A DNA stretch of 64,000 nucleotides, from NCBI RefSeq assembly GCF_050920415.1, contig NZ_CP169309.1, one strand, 5' to 3'. The DNA is from Escherichia coli. GTDB lineage: Bacteria; Pseudomonadota; Gammaproteobacteria; Enterobacterales; Enterobacteriaceae. Below, piece after piece: positions 43,801 through 49,800 of the stretch. Position 1 is the stretch's first letter, and each line of letters begins with the position of its first letter. A program made the position numbers.

Positions 43801-46800
43801 GAAGCCGATCGCATTCGGTTACGAAGCGTCGTAACTCTGCTTCAACTACTTTCGGCTGTTCTTTCAGGCGTTTCAGATAATCACGTCCTGGTTTTTCTAC
43901 CGCTGTTTTACTTCTTGAAACCTTCGCAGCCAGAGATGCAATGCGCTTTCTGCCTTTGTCTGTGCTAATGTCAGGCACTTCATTAACACCTTCACGGATC
44001 TGCTCGAGAAACTTTTCCAGCCCTTTTTCAACGTAAATTCTTGGTGCCATGTCTGGTGTGATTTCGATGATTGATAATTCACTCATTTGCTAACCTCCTC
44101 CCATATCTCGTTATCGTTGGCCACATCGCGAGCTTCTTTGCTGACGAAAGCCCACTTAATGCCTTCCTGTAAGGTGCGGAACTTCCAGCTCATGAATCCG
44201 CATGCAGTAACGCAGTACCAACCGTTGATGATTTTCCACTGCATAACTTGTTACCTCGGTCTGTTACCGTTGAGGTAATAATTATGCGTATCTGGTTTGA
44301 TGTCAATAGATATGAGTTAAAAAAATTACCCGTTAGGTAATCGAATAGGCAATAAAAAAGCCGCCATAAGGCGGCTTACTTACTGAAAAATATGATTTTA
44401 TTGTTTGTTTTTTTCGTTCTGGTTGATGACAAATTCAATGTAACTTTCGATCTTTGCCTTCTCTGTTTCAGGTAACAATGCGTAGCGCGAGCGGTCATAG
44501 TTGATAGTTGCAGGGTCATGCGGATGAATCAGTAGTTCATATCCGTGACGCCCGAATGCAGATGCAACATTCTCCAGGGTGGAAATGGAAACGCTGACCT
44601 CATTGTTTAACAGGCGGCTGATTGTCACCTGGGCGACGCCGGATGCGCGGTGAAGTTTTCCCTGTGTTGAAAGGTCGCGGCTTTCGCTCATCCAGCGTTC
44701 CAGGTTGTGAGCCGCCAGCTGACCAATGTCGCTTGGGCCGACAGGCTGAAAACCTTCCTGAGAAAGCGAGCGATCGATATCAAGCCAGTTACGGGGTTTA
44801 TTGGCGGCAGCTTCAATTTTTCGCGCAACCTGGTCGCCGATAACCTTCTTGCCAAGAGCCCAGCGGTTTACCAGATTTGCCTGAGTTCCAAGTTTTTCTG
44901 CCATCCGCGTCTGAACACCATTGAATTCACGGTCGATCAAGTCGTTGAGATTTTGCCTGCGGACGTCCTGGATACTTTTCATTTTCTGGAAAATCGCCTC
45001 ATATATGAATCAGTAGATGATTCAATTTAAAGCAATATTACCCAACAGGTAAATGCACCTCATAGGTAACTATCCTTGATTTTTGTTACCTTATGGGTGA
45101 ATATTTATTATCTGAAATAAATATCAGGCAATAGCTATGAGCGATAACGGACATTTCGATTTCAAAAAGCACTGGCTTGCACTTACTCCGGATGAGCGTG
45201 AAGCCTTCGCACAGGAAGCCGGAACGACGAGTCACTATATCCAGACTCACTTAACAGGTAAGCGAAAAATGCCAGGTAAAGTATTGATGAATGGGCTTTT
45301 TAAAGCCTGTAAAACAAGACAATGGCTGCGCTCAAAAGCAGAACTGGCATACTTCTTCTACTCATGATATCCAGCTACAACCCTCTGTAGACCGCCATCC
45401 GGCGGTCTTTTCATATCTATTCGTACCTTAAAGGTAATAAAAAACCAAATCTGGTTGATCTTTTTTTTGTGTCAGCACAAAATAACCGTAATCCCAATAC
45501 TAATAACAGGGCTTACCATGGAAATCATTACACGTATTGATGCCGCAAAGCGCGGACTTAAACGCTACTACACCGGAAAACCATGTAAGCACGGACATGA
45601 CAGTGAACGCTGGGTTTACAACGGACACTGTGTTGAGTGCACCATGGAATCAAACCGTCGCATTAGGGCAGAGATTAAGCAGATCATGATTAATTCCTCC
45701 CCACAACATTCAAGCTGATAGCGGAGATTAATCATGAGCAGACATGCAACAGATTGGGCCTGGGAGACAGATCCAGGCAGCTCATCATTAAAGCTCATAC
45801 TGCTCTCGATGGCTGACAGAGCCGATGAATATAACCTCTGCTACCCCAGCATAGAACGCCTCGTTAAAGACACTTGCCTGAATAAAAAAACCGTGCAGGC
45901 CGGGCTTATATCGCTCATGAAAATGGGGCTTATTTCAGATACCGGAGAGAGAAAGGGAGCGACGAAAAGAGTGCGGGTTTTCTCTCTTAATATAACCAAA
46001 AACGGGAACATTAAAGGCAACCGGGAAGGGAGTAATGAACCCGAAAACGGAAATGTTACCGAAAACGGGAATATACCCAAAAACGGGATGTTGAATGATC
46101 CCAAAAACGGGATGTTGAATGATCCCAAAAACGGGATCCAGAACCAGTCATATAACCAGTCATTTAACCAAGAGAGGGGGAGCAGGACAAAAACCGGGGA
46201 TTCTGTGCCTCATGACCCCGGCGCAAACAACGCCGTGATGAATAACTTTGTTCCTCCTGGTGGGCCAGGGCAATTAGGCAAATTTGTCATGCATGAACAA
46301 TGGCAACCATCAGATGACTTTCTTCGGAAAAGCTCATTGCAGGGAATCTACCTGGACAGTCTGCCAACGGCACAGGAACTTGCAGAGTTCAGAATTTACT
46401 GGATGGCTGAGGGTAAGGCATACCATCAGGCACAGTGGGAGCAGAAGCTGGCAAGGCGGCTGCAGATTAGCAGACAGAAGCAATCAACATTACCTGATAA
46501 CAACGTTCCGCACTGGAACAGCCCTGAAGCGTGGGAGGATTTCTTGTGAACAACGTTTTTACCGCGATACAAAACCGTGACGGAGAAGCCCTTTCTCGCA
46601 TGTCAGGTTATGAGCATCAATACGTCAACAATGACAATGTGGTGAACATGTCAGCAGAGAGGCTTGTTGATGCCCTTTTCAAACAGCTGAAACAACTGTT
46701 TCCGGCGGCAGTAGTAACCAACCTGAAGACGCCAGAGCAGGAAGTTGCTGCAAAACAGCAGTGGATTGCTGCGTTTGCCGAAGGTGGGATCCGAACCCGT

Positions 46801-49800
46801 GAACAGGTTTCTGCTGGTATGCGCCACGCTCGCGCCAGTGAGTCTCCGTTCTGGCCGTCGCCAGGGCAATTCATCAAGTGGTGTAAAGACAGCAAGATGG
46901 TTCTTGGCGTCACCATTGACGATGTGATGGCGGAGTTTCACCGGTACAGCAAGGAAAAAAGTTTATATCCTGGTGGTCCCGAAAGATTCCCGTGGCGACA
47001 TCCGGTTATGTACTGGGTCGTATGTGATACCCGCCGTGCAATGTATCAGCGCCAGCTTAGCGAGATTGAGGTTGAGAAACACGCGCGCAGGCTGCTCGAT
47101 GATTGGGCGAAAAAGGTGGCTTCCGGACAGCAGATACCCGATCCGGTGATCAGCATACAGGCAAAGCCAGAGCCCATGAGTACGCCTCCGGACACAGGGA
47201 GAGACGTTTACCATCCACCAGGGCGAAGTTTCGGGTGTATGCCTAACGCCGCCACCCTGGGGGGAATAACACCGGCGCAGTGGCTAATGGAGGAATACAG
47301 GCGGGGAAAGGCGGCAGGATTTATCAAGTAATACCAGCGCGATAGCGCATTTTTTTACGTCTCAATAATTACCTATAAGGTAACAAAATATTCTAAACTC
47401 TATTGATTTAGTGTCTTATGTGGTTTTTAATTACCTCAGAGGTAAATCATGAGAAAACAGATACAGGCTCTTGGTCGACTCAAAACAGGCCAGATGAACA
47501 AAACAGAATCTGCGTATTGCCAGCACCTTGAGCAGCGTAAACGTGCAGGGGAAATCGCCTGGTATCGATTCGAGGGTATCAAGCTGCGGTTAGCTGACAA
47601 CACGTTCTATACGCCCGATTTCGCTGTGATGCTCGCCACCGGCGAGATGGAGCTGCACGAAGTGAAAGGGGGATTCTGGACCGATGACGCCAGAGTGAAA
47701 ACCAAAGTCGCCGCAGATCAGTATCCGTTCCGAATCATCGGGGTAACGGTTAAGCCAAAGAAAGCAGGTGGTGGCTGGAACATCGAAGAGTTCTGAATCG
47801 ACGATCTTTTTAGTTATCAATGTAATCAATAAGTTATGTGGATAAGCGAGGGTAAAGATGGAAAGTAATATCAAAGGGTTAGTTTCCGCCGGGCATGAGA
47901 TGGCTTCGGAACTGAAAGCAGAATGTGGTGCCGTTGATATGCGCAGTGTGGCAAAGCTGATCAGCGATTTGGCAACGCAACTGGAAGTGCAACTGGTGCG
48001 TGCTAATGCGCAGGACGAAGACAACCAGAGAGCCATTGAGTCAATTAAACAGGCTGATTCGGCTGTTAAGTTGGCACACGAGAAGTTTTCGGCGCTGGCG
48101 GCGAAACGTGCAATTCCAGCAATGGAACGCCTGTTAATGTTGCCAGCTGATGATGATTTGTTAAGTGAACAGGAACTTAAAGATTACGGTGTGGATATTG
48201 ATGCGCTCAACGCCTTCAAATTTCTGGCCGGACCAGAAACCGTGCTGGCACTACTGGATGAACGGGAAAGAAACCAGCAATACATCAAACGCCGTGACCA
48301 GGAGAACGAGGATATTGCGCTAACGGTAGGGAAGCTGAGAGTTGAGCTTGAGGAAGCAAAATCAAAACTCAACGAGCAGCGTGAGTATTACGAAGGTGTT
48401 ATCTCGGATGGAAGTAAGCGCATAGCAGAACTGGAAGCGCGGGAAATAAAACCAGCCAAAGGTGAAGTTCTGGTCGTTGTATCTGGTTTTACTGGTTGCG
48501 GAAAAAGCGCCATTGCCGGGGAAATAGAAATCGCGATGAAGGCTATTGGTGTACCGGTTAAGTGGACTAATGGCGATGCAGAAAAGCGCATGACTGGCGC
48601 TGACTGGCTGACTGCGATTGAGATGTACAAACCAACTGTGCGCATCGTGGAAGTTAATGTGCCCCGCGCCGCTGGCATTCGCATCAAAGGAAAGTGATAT
48701 GGCTAACTCATTACTTGAAACCTGCAACAACTGGCAGATTCAGAGGGCGGAGATTTTATCTCGCAATCCAGATATGGCAATGACAATCGATAATCTGGAT
48801 ACGCTAATTGAACGTACCGTGCGTTCTGCAATTGATATAGCACGTCGAGTTGACTGGGATTTCAGAGAAGCGGAGCGGCTTGCTAAAGAGCAGGAGAAAG
48901 CAGCGGGTAAAGGAGACTGATATGGATAAAAACACCACTGCTTACTGGAATCTGTCACTTGATACCGAATGCCCAAAATGCGGTCACAATTTCGATCTGC
49001 TTTGTGATGCTGATTTCTGGGAGTTTTCTGGAGCTAAACAGGCATGTGAAGAAATAAAAGGTTACGAAACATGCTGTCCAGAATGTAACCATGAATTTAA
49101 AACAGATTTCGTGTATTGAGGCATAACAAATGACCACTATTACCAGAGAACAGGCACAGAAAATTATTGAAGCAGCCGATGAGGTTATTAGTGCGCTGGC
49201 CGGAACTAACGAGGATGTTCACCCTGGTAGCGATAACATGCTACGCCTGTGGGATGACCTGAATGACCGTTACGCGCCGCCGGAAGTTGTGCGTGAGCTG
49301 GCGCGTATCGTGCTGGCATCGCTGGAAGCAGAACCAGTTGCTTATATTTTCAAACATCCGGCCGGGAAATTATTCTGGGCTTTAACGGATGAAAGCAATA
49401 AAGAGCAAGCGGACGTTATTCCTGTTTATGCTGCCGCGCCTGCGTCGGTTGTGCCGGATGATGCATCAGGGTCGCTTGCTTATGCTTACAAAGAGCTTAC
49501 GCCTGAGATTATGCGCGGTCATATCGCTGTATTCGAGCGATATGGAATAGCCCCAAACGATAGCATTACCACAATTCAGGCACTGCGAATCGCGCTGGAT
49601 GGCATAGAGCGGAGCGACGCCATGCTTCATGGTGCCGAACCCGTAAGCCAAACTTACAAGTTGAACGAGCTATCTGGCAACTATCCGGCAACTCCGGATA
49701 GTTGGATAAGCTGTAGTGAGCGAATGCCGGAAAAGAACAAGAACGTGCTTATTTCGGTGAATTTCGACAGCTCTCTGGTTGAACCGCTAATATGCTCCGC

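What the first reader, a model, noticed from the sequence alone, without database searches (positions are those of the whole stretch)
45734..47331. Lambda O/P-type replication module with origin iterons embedded in the initiator gene
The P-like protein matches lambda P in its DnaB-binding region. The upstream initiator contains an exact 24-bp tandem duplication (CCCAAAAACGGGATGTTGAATGAT x2), a partial third copy and two related 17-18-bp copies. These translate into PKNGMLNDPKNGMLNDPKNGI in the middle of the protein. This is the lambda arrangement of ori iterons inside O, but the initiator sequence is unrelated to lambda O. An A+T-rich stretch follows the iterons (46140-46200 region is moderately AT-rich).
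Basis: seen in the sequence. Interest (0 to 1): 0.5.

Follow-up and report, generated by a model that had tools for sequence, protein, structure and literature searches.

The report
Phage replication origin inside initiator gene
This is the replication module of a common phiV10-type E. coli prophage: the gene for the origin-binding protein carries its own array of binding sites, as in phage lambda, so the finding is sound but of an already familiar kind.

Summary
ORF 45734-46549 (271 aa) and the overlapping ORF 46546-47331 form a lambda-like initiator/loader pair in a phiV10-type prophage (97-98% identical to phiV10 gp43/gp44; found in 423 of 5,426 complete E. coli genomes). The second protein is a full-length lambda P homologue. 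The initiator has an N-terminal winged-helix domain (Pfam HTH_36), an N/G/P-rich linker and a C-terminal domain like the ssDNA-binding domain of E. coli DnaT.

The linker DNA holds six same-strand copies of CCNAAAACGGRA, spaced 45, 18, 18, 24 and 24 bp, and these are the only exact copies in 64 kb.

Comparison shows they are DNA elements, not peptide repeats:
- All 78 close orthologues keep the array (4-9 copies).
- 50 of 58 distant homologues of the N-domain, one per species, have a repeat cluster at the same place, against 4/58 and 1/55 in controls.
- The recurrent spacing is 45/46, 17, 17, 22/24, 22/24, often out of frame.
- Genes with the same C-domain but another N-domain lack the array.

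Two corrections: the N-domain is a probable remote relative of lambda O, and the "AT-rich" stretch is weak. Origin function is inferred, not shown.

The parts
45734..46549 (+). Initiator gene (271 aa): winged-helix N-domain, iteron-encoding linker, DnaT-like C-domain
   Evidence: ORF. Pfam HTH_36 (aa 18-67, E 1.8e-10) and DnaT (aa 184-252, E 1.2e-15). PHROG 1032 'replication initiation protein', E 3.6e-108. 97-98% nucleotide identity to phiV10 gp43.
45734..45997 (+). N-terminal DNA-binding domain (aa 1-88), the presumed iteron reader
   Evidence: Pfam HTH_36. It is 43-57% identical to the N-domains of initiators in Edwardsiella, Vibrio, Acinetobacter, E. coli and Burkholderia phages, all of which are followed by repeat arrays.
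45993..46137 (+). Iteron array I1-I6. The 16-bp registers start at 45993, 46038, 46056, 46074, 46098 and 46122 (spacing 45, 18, 18, 24, 24). The best copies read ATCCCAAAAACGGGAT, with 5-bp inverted arms.
   Evidence: The same spacing scheme occurs in distant homologues.
46138..46184 (+). Candidate unwinding region: 12-bp tandem repeat AACCAGTCAT(A/T)T x2.4 (46142-46170), with the A-rich, T-poor strand on top
   Evidence: TRF. Composition A/(A+T) is 0.76, as in lambda's AT-rich region, but A+T and instability are only modest. Relatives have 'CAGAAC...' short repeats at the same place. This assignment is inferred.
46185..46200 (+). Weak seventh iteron-like copy (GGACAAAAACCGGGGA), 63 bp after I6
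   Evidence: De novo cluster test. The copy is closer to consensus in phiV10 and BP9 (ACAAAAAACGGGG).
46271..46528 (+). DnaT C-terminal-like ssDNA-binding domain (aa 180-265)
   Evidence: phmmer against PDB: E. coli DnaT 9zbt_D, 6aep, 4ou6, 2ru8, E about 1e-20. The six ssDNA-contact residues of Liu et al. 2014 (Y127, W128, K133, F135, K143, R146) align with Y222, W223, K228, Y230, K238, R241.
46546..47331 (+). Lambda P-type helicase loader gene, start overlapping the initiator stop
   Evidence: Pfam PF06992, E 1.5e-56. PHROG 109 'P-like helicase loader'. 31% identity to lambda P over 201 aa, E 2e-35. PDB 8v9t_V, E 4.5e-31.
45389..45408 (+). Terminator-like hairpin upstream of the module (tR1-like position)
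   Evidence: phiV10 carries an annotated terminator at the homologous place.
47337..47356 (+). Short GC hairpin followed by T7, directly after P
   Evidence: Read from the sequence. The homologous site is annotated as a putative rho-independent terminator in phiV10. The scan, which needs at least 5 pairs, did not report it.
45521..45718 (+). Small conserved ORF (65 aa, Cys/His-rich) just upstream of the initiator; role unknown
   Evidence: PHROG 1081, E 7.5e-42, function unknown. Equivalent to phiV10 gp42.

Best explanation
This is the early-right replication module of a phiV10-type (Uetakevirus) prophage, and it works like lambda's O/P system.

- The initiator's N-terminal winged-helix domain binds the six or seven direct repeats that lie inside its own gene, in the DNA that encodes the linker between its two domains. 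Several initiator molecules are thereby assembled side by side.
- DNA next to the array opens. The best candidate is the 12-mer repeat region at 46138-46184.
- The C-terminal DnaT-like domains, held nearby on flexible linkers, bind and probably coat the exposed single strand.
- The P-type protein, probably docked through its N-terminal part to the initiator's extreme C-terminal tail, delivers the host DnaB helicase.

Shown here: the domain identities, the repeat array, its statistical excess, and its tight evolutionary coupling to the N-domain at the DNA level. Inferred: binding, melting, the role of the DnaT-like domain, and P docking.
For: Domains:
- HTH_36 plus DnaT domain in the initiator, and lambda P in the next protein.
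- The six DnaT ssDNA-contact residues are kept.
- The DnaT C-domain forms filaments on ssDNA at the helicase-loading site (PMC13377028).

Array:
- Six exact CCNAAAACGGRA copies lie only in 45996-46136.
- TRF and the repeat finder report the same array.
- The de novo test recovers lambda's four annotated iterons as a positive control.

Persistence:
- 78 of 78 IMG/VR orthologues with a 99-100% identical N-domain keep the array. Copy number is 4-9, with a mode of 6 as in the window.
- Database proteins come in lengths such as 279, 287 and 311 aa, that is 271 plus multiples of 8 aa, one 24-bp unit each.

Coupling to the N-domain:
- Edno5 has the lambda-O C-domain plus P. Acinetobacter phages are followed by a DnaB-like helicase. 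Bcep176 is followed by a DUF6475 protein. The Vibrio phage has another C-part. All have arrays just after the N-domain.
- TL-2011b and Tyrion share the DnaT-like C-domain and P but have other N-domains, and they have no array above shuffle level.

Diverse prophages:
- 50 of 58 one-per-species loci have at least 4 clustered repeats in the 450 bp after the N-domain. Controls give 4/58 upstream and 1/55 downstream.
- Spacings peak at 17-18, 22-25 and 45-46 bp, and the pattern 45/46, 17, 17, 22/24, 22/24 recurs.
- Spacings of 17 and 22 bp put the copies in different reading frames, so the constraint is on the DNA.
- The repeat sequence changes with lineage.

P docking hint:
- The first 90 aa of P co-vary with the initiator's C-tail: 63/63 and 11/11.
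- TL-2011b has a lambda-O-like tail (NNTDWIEGV against TNTDWIYGV) together with a P N-part 50% identical to lambda's. The window's P N-part is 27% identical.
Against: - There is no experimental evidence of binding or origin activity for this family in the papers I could search.
- There is no marked AT-rich unwinding element next to the array in this phage.
- The tail and the P N-terminus are adjacent DNA, so their co-variation could be linkage alone.
- Direct profile comparison of the N-domain with lambda O was weak (hhalign P-value 0.008, probability 5%).
- The structure model was uninformative (mean pLDDT 38).
Confidence: 0.8

Rival explanations
1. The repeats are binding sites for the initiator but serve control (autoregulation, copy-number or incompatibility titration, handcuffing). 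Strand opening and helicase loading happen elsewhere in the phage.
For: No strong AT-rich element flanks the array. The least stable DNA in 45000-47400 lies in the intergenic promoter regions. Copy number is polymorphic among orthologues.
Against: The position and geometry are those of lambda's proven origin. In relatives such as Bcep176 the least stable 30-mer of the region lies directly after the array (z 3.0). A conserved short-repeat, A-rich segment follows the last repeat in all lineages examined.
Confidence: 0.1
2. The repeats are only a slippage-prone, low-complexity coding segment (an N/G/P-rich linker) with no role as DNA.
For: Units are gained and lost among near-identical orthologues: 24-bp, 18-bp and 12-bp units all vary. 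In this phage all copies are in one frame. The linker is 77% N/G/P/S/Q/E/K/D/T, against 51% elsewhere in the protein.
Against: In distant homologues the same array geometry is kept with 17- and 22-bp spacings, so the copies fall in all three frames and encode different peptides. The array is present in 50 of 58 diverse loci and never lost in 78 close ones. It disappears together with the N-domain, not with the linker or the C-domain. The core has dyad symmetry typical of protein-binding sites.
Confidence: 0.05
3. The repeats are bound by a different protein, for example the small Cys/His-rich ORF 45521-45718, the phage repressor or a host factor, rather than by the initiator.
For: Binding has not been tested. 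A conserved small ORF of unknown function sits just upstream.
Against: The array co-occurs with the HTH_36 N-domain in phages that lack the phiV10 neighbours. The likely operator of this phage is a different palindrome, TTACCTnnnAGGTAA.
Confidence: 0.03

Closest known systems
Phage lambda ori / O / P
   Same: The gene order is initiator then P-type loader, with overlapping stop and start. An array of same-strand repeats lies inside the initiator gene, between an N-terminal DNA-binding domain and a C-terminal domain. Repeat spacing is 18-24 bp here and 20-24 bp in lambda. The repeat looks similar (ATCCCAAAAACGGGAT against lambda ATCCCTCAAAACGAGGGA), and an A-rich top strand follows the last repeat.
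   Different: The N-domain falls in Pfam HTH_36, not Phage_rep_O, and has no BLASTP similarity to O. The C-domain is DnaT-like, not the lambda O C-domain. The CCC...GGG arms are 6 bp apart, not 9. There are six or seven repeats rather than four. There is no strong AT-rich block.
phiV10 gp43/gp44 and related Uetakevirus prophages
   Same: It is the same module at 97-98% nucleotide identity, and 423 of 5,426 complete E. coli genomes carry the gene.
   Different: The differences are in repeat copy number: BP9 lacks one 24-bp unit, and phiV10 has one more 12-bp unit. No origin or repeat feature is annotated in the phiV10 RefSeq stretch I read.
DopC/DopE of Cellvibrionales and relatives (Brezellec et al. 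2017, PMC5509034)
   Same: The two-gene architecture is the same: HTH_36 plus a DnaT C-terminal motif, followed by a P homologue.
   Different: DopC/E is chromosomal and thought to be domesticated, and the authors found no iterons in dopC. Here the pair is on a prophage and the iterons are intact, so this looks like the undomesticated form.
E. coli DnaT (primosomal protein I, PriA-dependent restart)
   Same: The C-terminal ssDNA-binding domain matches (E about 1e-20), with all six DNA-contact residues kept.
   Different: There is no DnaT N-terminal oligomerisation domain. The protein scores 84.9 against a cut-off of 201 for the DnaT equivalog model. It is localised by sequence-specific repeats rather than by PriA/PriB.
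Iteron-plasmid Rep proteins (RepE, TrfA) that bind dsDNA iterons and then ssDNA of the unwinding element (Wegrzyn et al. 2014, PMC4081077; seen, abstract only)
   Same: The logic is the same: one initiator with a duplex-repeat reader and a single-strand binder acting next to the repeats.
   Different: The folds differ, the phage has a separate dedicated ssDNA domain, and the repeats lie inside the coding sequence.

Membership tests
Lambda-type O/P replication module (origin inside the initiator gene) | A P-family helicase loader gene lies directly downstream of, and coupled to, the initiator gene | tested here: met
   PF06992 E 1.5e-56 over the full model. 31% identity to lambda P over 201 aa. 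PDB 8v9t_V E 4.5e-31. GTGA stop/start overlap.
Lambda-type O/P replication module (origin inside the initiator gene) | An array of at least four same-strand repeats lies inside the initiator ORF, between the DNA-binding domain and the C-terminal domain | tested here: met
   Six exact core copies at 45996-46136 and none elsewhere in 64 kb. TRF and repeat finder agree. The de novo test gives 7 copies against 2-4 in shuffles.
Lambda-type O/P replication module (origin inside the initiator gene) | The repeats are constrained as DNA and go with the initiator's DNA-binding domain | tested here: met
   50 of 58 diverse loci have arrays, against 4/58 and 1/55 in controls. Spacings of 17 and 22 bp are out of frame. 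Arrays are absent from TL-2011b and Tyrion, which have other N-domains.
Lambda-type O/P replication module (origin inside the initiator gene) | A marked AT-rich unwinding element lies next to the repeats | tested here: inconclusive
   46137-46200 is 52% A+T. The best 30-mer has z about 1.4, against z 3.4 in lambda. The A-over-T strand bias is like lambda's.
Lambda-type O/P replication module (origin inside the initiator gene) | The initiator N-domain belongs to Pfam Phage_rep_O (PF04492) | tested here: not met
   The window protein hits HTH_36, not PF04492, while lambda O hits PF04492. A remote link exists: both hit PHROG 678 and 345. hhalign is weak. A literature HHpred claim supports the link (PMC5509034).
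Lambda-type O/P replication module (origin inside the initiator gene) | A lambda O-type C-terminal (P-binding) domain | tested here: not met
   BLASTP against lambda O finds nothing, and the C-domain is DnaT-like. By contrast, Edno5 has the lambda O C-domain at 61% identity.
Lambda-type O/P replication module (origin inside the initiator gene) | The initiator binds the repeats and the fragment supports replication | not testable with these tools
   This needs EMSA or footprinting and a plasmid replication assay.
DnaT (primosomal protein I) | C-terminal ssDNA-binding domain with its DNA-contact residues | tested here: met
   PF17948 E 1.2e-15. PDB DnaT chains E about 1e-20. Y222, W223, K228, Y230, K238, R241 align with the residues tested by Liu et al. 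2014.
DnaT (primosomal protein I) | Full-length match to the DnaT equivalog model, including the N-terminal oligomerisation domain | tested here: not met
   NF002770 scores 84.9 bits against a cut-off of 201, and only model positions 86-169 are matched. PDB matches cover DnaT 85-170 only.
DopC/DopE domesticated pair | An HTH_36 plus DnaT_C protein next to a P homologue | tested here: met
   compared with the architecture described in PMC5509034.
DopC/DopE domesticated pair | A chromosomal gene without iterons, in genomes lacking dnaC and dciA | tested here: not met
   Iterons are present. The locus lies in a phiV10-type prophage that begins near 38047.

The most novel reading that the evidence does not exclude
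HTH_36-type phage initiators, found from enterics to Acinetobacter, Vibrio, Burkholderia, Sphingomonadales and Desulfovibrionaceae, would share one origin design. It has a fixed scheme: one distal repeat, about 45 bp, three repeats at 17-18 bp, then two or more at 22-24 bp, written into the linker-coding DNA regardless of reading frame.

In the phiV10 branch the tethered DnaT-like C-domains would coat the opened strand, a DnaA-like way of marking the loading site. P would dock on the initiator's C-terminal tail. On this reading E. coli DnaT and the DopC/DopE pair descend from this kind of phage initiator, rather than the phage having borrowed a host domain.
Probability: 0.3. Interest if true: 0.55.

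Novelty: new member of a known kind. Interest (0 to 1): 0.35.

Why it matters
- It supplies a missing annotation, the probable origin, for a prophage family present in about 8% of complete E. coli genomes and in the O157 typing and biocontrol phage phiV10. Current annotation calls the initiator only a 'DnaT-like ssDNA-binding domain-containing protein'.
- The conserved repeat geometry gives a concrete model of how the initiator assembles on the origin, testable with a handful of constructs.
- The natural combination of repeat reader, DnaT-like ssDNA binder and P loader links three topics usually treated apart: lambda-type initiation, PriA/DnaT restart, and the DopC/DopE replacement of DnaC.
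- The general principle, an origin inside the initiator gene, has been textbook knowledge since lambda, so none of this is very surprising.

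Tried and rejected
- **AlphaFold2 on the single sequence.** Mean pLDDT was 37.8 and pTM 0.25. The model was unusable, so no fold search was run.
- **hhalign of the seven-sequence N-domain alignment against lambda O aa 1-125.** It aligned the expected helix-wing region, but the P-value was only 0.008 and the probability 5%. The profiles were too shallow to decide.
- **BLASTP of the initiator against lambda O.** No significant match.
- **DnaA boxes.** The only boxes are at 35154 and 47837, which is chance level, so no DnaA involvement is suggested.
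- **AT-richness and duplex stability.** They do not single out a melting site in this phage.
- **Literature.** No open-access paper holds 'phiV10' together with 'iterons'. None holds CCCAAAAACGGG or CCAAAAACGGGA among the 15 best of 76 hits, which were papillomavirus E2 sites and primers matching only CCGAAAACGG.
- **Alternative origins in TL-2011b and Tyrion.** No repeat cluster rose above shuffle level.
- **First genome-contig scan.** A four-sequence alignment worked.
- **Rfam.** Nothing in the module.
- **Terminator-like hits on the minus strand at 46084-46127.** These are a by-product of the dyad-symmetric repeats, not terminators.

Full report
**What is there.** The window is E. coli chromosome joined to the left part of a phiV10-type prophage. 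The chromosomal part carries the sRNA genes ryfA and sroE. The prophage begins near 38047 with an integrase gene.

The finding lies in the prophage's early-right operon. The order is:
- a double-HTH repressor gene at 44398-44982 (-);
- a cro-like ORF at 45137-45367;
- a terminator-like hairpin at 45389-45408;
- a small Cys/His-rich ORF at 45521-45718;
- the 271-aa ORF at 45734-46549;
- an overlapping P-like ORF ending at 47331;
- a short hairpin followed by T7.

The 2-kb stretch is 97-98% identical to phiV10, PAS61, phiv142-3 and others. RefSeq calls the two phiV10 genes 'replication initiation protein' and 'putative replication protein p', and annotates no origin or repeats there. The initiator gene occurs in 423 of 5,426 complete E. 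coli genomes. PGAP names it 'DnaT-like ssDNA-binding domain-containing protein', followed by 'replication protein P'.

**The observation.** It is accurate.
- TRF reports a perfect 24-bp repeat (2.6 copies, 46076-46137) and an 18-bp repeat (2.8 copies, 46039-46088).
- The repeat finder adds a sixth copy at 45988-46011.
- Put in register, six 16-bp sites start at 45993, 46038, 46056, 46074, 46098 and 46122. The best three read ATCCCAAAAACGGGAT, with 5-bp inverted arms.
- The core CCNAAAACGGRA occurs six times exactly, all on one strand and all in 45996-46136, and nowhere else in 64 kb. No shuffle reaches the observed count.
- A weaker seventh copy lies at 46185-46200.
- Between I6 and that copy is a 12-bp tandem repeat, AACCAGTCAT(A/T)T.

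The AT-rich claim is the one weak element. The stretch 46137-46200 has the same A+T as the gene. Only 30 bp reach 67%, with a stability z of about 1.4. Lambda's AT-rich block is the least stable 30-mer of its region at z 3.4. What the two do share is a strong excess of A over T on the top strand, 0.76 in both.

**The proteins.** The second protein is a full-length lambda P homologue: Pfam model 2-162 of 162, E 1.5e-56; 31% identity to lambda P over 201 aa; PDB 8v9t, E 4.5e-31.

The initiator has three parts.
- Residues 18-67 match Pfam HTH_36.
- Residues 86-179 are 77% N/G/P/S/Q/E/K/D/T, and the repeats and short tandem units lie within the DNA that encodes them.
- Residues 180-265 match the C-terminal domain of E. 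coli DnaT at E about 1e-20.

The six residues that Liu et al. 2014 found necessary for ssDNA binding by DnaT align with Y222, W223, K228, Y230, K238 and R241. The protein is not DnaT itself. It lacks DnaT's N-domain and scores 84.9 against the equivalog cut-off of 201.

**Are the repeats DNA elements or just a repetitive linker?** Within this phage all copies share one frame, so the window alone cannot tell. Relatives can, and four lines of evidence point the same way.

1. All 78 IMG/VR orthologues with a 99-100% identical N-domain and a complete gene keep the array. They have 4-9 copies, and 43 have exactly the window's layout.

2. The array follows the N-domain, not the rest of the protein.
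   - Edwardsiella phage Edno5 has an N-domain 57% identical to the window's, then a lambda O C-domain (61% identical to lambda O) and a lambda-like P.
   - Acinetobacter phages have the N-domain followed by a DnaB-like helicase gene.
   - Bcep176 is followed by a DUF6475 protein.
   - A Vibrio phage has yet another C-part.
   - All of these carry repeat arrays directly after the N-domain.
   - Conversely, TL-2011b and Tyrion share the DnaT-like C-domain and P but have unrelated N-domains, and they show no repeat cluster above shuffle level.

3. In 58 prophage loci from different species, with N-domains 36-87% identical, 50 have at least four clustered 11-mers in the 450 bp after the N-domain. 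Equal-sized controls give 4/58 upstream and 1/55 downstream. The same test recovers lambda's four annotated iterons.

4. The spacing scheme is conserved while the frame is not. Spacings peak at 17-18, 22-25 and 45-46 bp. The order 45/46, 17, 17, 22/24, 22/24 recurs in many of the Acinetobacter loci, and Desulfovibrionaceae show a related 17,17,17,22,22,22 pattern. The window's 45, 18, 18, 24, 24 is the in-frame version. With 17- and 22-bp steps the copies fall in all three frames and encode different peptides, as in Bcep176. The repeat sequence itself differs by lineage: CCCAAAAACGGG, AACAGTnCCAACAA, ACCAGTCGGAAAAAT, GCGCCCCCGAA.

These results make a DNA-level binding-site array read by the N-domain by far the best explanation.

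**Relation to lambda.** BLASTP sees no similarity between the initiator and lambda O, and Pfam puts them in different families.
- The N-terminal 145-170 residues of both proteins hit PHROG 678 and PHROG 345 over overlapping profile positions. The window scores E 2e-12 and 1.4e-8; lambda O scores 1.7e-35 and 5.2e-17.
- Brezellec et al. 2017 report an HTH_36 domain in lambda O by HHpred.
- My own shallow profile comparison aligned the equivalent helix-wing segments but was not significant.
- The repeats also resemble lambda's: ATCCCTCAAAACGAGGGA against ATCCCAAAAACGGGAT, with each arm about one base shorter. I did not test that resemblance statistically.

So 'unrelated' is too strong. This is a probable remote relative in the origin-reading half, with a different C-terminal half.

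**How it most likely works.** The following steps are inferred by analogy and from the anatomy.
- Early rightward transcription makes the initiator and P, probably by coupled translation.
- N-domains occupy I1-I7, bringing six or more C-domains on flexible linkers next to the 46138-46184 segment.
- Once that DNA breathes or is bent open, the DnaT-like domains bind the single strand. [quoted passage not shown]
- P brings DnaB.

There is a hint that P docks on the initiator's extreme C-terminal tail. Three tail types go with three types of P N-terminus. The window tail PEAWEDFL goes with P starting NNVFTAIQ in 63 of 63 loci. The tail ending DEINSRTS goes with P starting KSTPELLNE in 11 of 11. 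The TL-2011b tail NNTDWIEGV resembles lambda O's TNTDWIYGV, and its P N-part is 50% identical to lambda's, against 27% for the window. The rest of the TL-2011b P is identical to the window's. Because tail and P start are contiguous DNA, linkage alone could explain this.

**Rivals.**
- The array may serve control rather than initiation, with melting elsewhere. The missing strong AT block keeps this alive at about 0.1.
- It may be a mere slippage-prone linker, about 0.05. The out-of-frame conservation contradicts this.
- It may be bound by another protein, about 0.03.

**Known or new.** The kind is textbook: a lambda-type origin inside the initiator gene.
- The proteins are in PHROG, Pfam and RefSeq.
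- The HTH_36 plus DnaT_C and P architecture was described for the domesticated DopC/DopE pair, where no iterons were found.
- I found no annotation of these repeats in the phiV10 record and no open-access paper naming them. Subscription literature on phage replication modules was not searchable.

I therefore class this as a new member of a known kind. A modest extra is the family-wide repeat geometry. Another is that phiV10-type phages look like the undomesticated form of DopC/DopE, and perhaps of DnaT.

Noticed in passing
window 38197, 44264, 44326, 45038, 45055, 45086, 45423, 47369, 47431, 53620 (15-bp sites): The palindrome TTACCTnnnAGGTAA occurs 14 times with up to 2 mismatches, against 1.2 expected. 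Most copies are in prophage intergenic regions. Three lie between the repressor gene and the cro-like gene, and exact copies flank the replication module. It is probably the operator of this phage's repressor.
   Followed up: partly
L003:1810-2634 (TL-2011b) and L004:1780-2547 (Tyrion): These initiators share the DnaT-like C-domain and P but have two other, unrelated N-terminal domains (PHROG 2509 and 1408) and no detectable repeat cluster. Where their origins lie is unexplained.
   Followed up: partly
window 46531-46800, compared with L003:2606-2880: There is a mosaic junction inside P. TL-2011b P is 100% identical to the window's from about residue 90 onward, but only 29% identical in the first 90 residues, where it is 50% identical to lambda P.
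   Followed up: yes
window 46142-46170: The 12-bp unit AACCAGTCAT(A/T)T varies from 1 to 3 matches to the unit among close orthologues (phiV10 has one more). Relatives carry different short repeats at the same place, all starting with CAGAAC right after the last iteron.
   Followed up: partly
window 45521-45718 (+): A conserved 65-aa ORF with a CxxH...CxxC pattern (PHROG 1081, function unknown) sits immediately upstream of the initiator. It equals phiV10 gp42.
   Followed up: no
window 47449-47796 (+): This is a DUF1064 / PHROG 190 'Holliday junction resolvase'-like gene right after the replication module.
   Followed up: no
window 53221-53297 (-): A tRNA-Arg (anticodon TCT) is encoded inside the prophage part of the window.
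   Followed up: no
window 1-38047: This is host chromosome, with the sRNA genes ryfA (3492-3796, -) and sroE (16645-16736, +) and very long ORFs (5044-10005, 1653 aa; 26336-33364, 2342 aa). The prophage junction is near 38047, with an integrase gene at 38254-39504.
   Followed up: no
L002 (Escherichia phage BP9, PP488543.1) and phage PH444 (PP350014.1): A 138-kb 'Vequintavirus' record and a 115-kb record both contain this temperate phiV10-type module at 97-98% identity. That suggests chimeric assemblies or contaminating prophage DNA in those records.
   Followed up: no
window 46058-46069: Iteron I3 contains ACCGAAAACGG. The literature search for the core CCGAAAACGG returned mainly papers on papillomavirus E2 and its origin binding sites, which is surely coincidence.
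   Followed up: no
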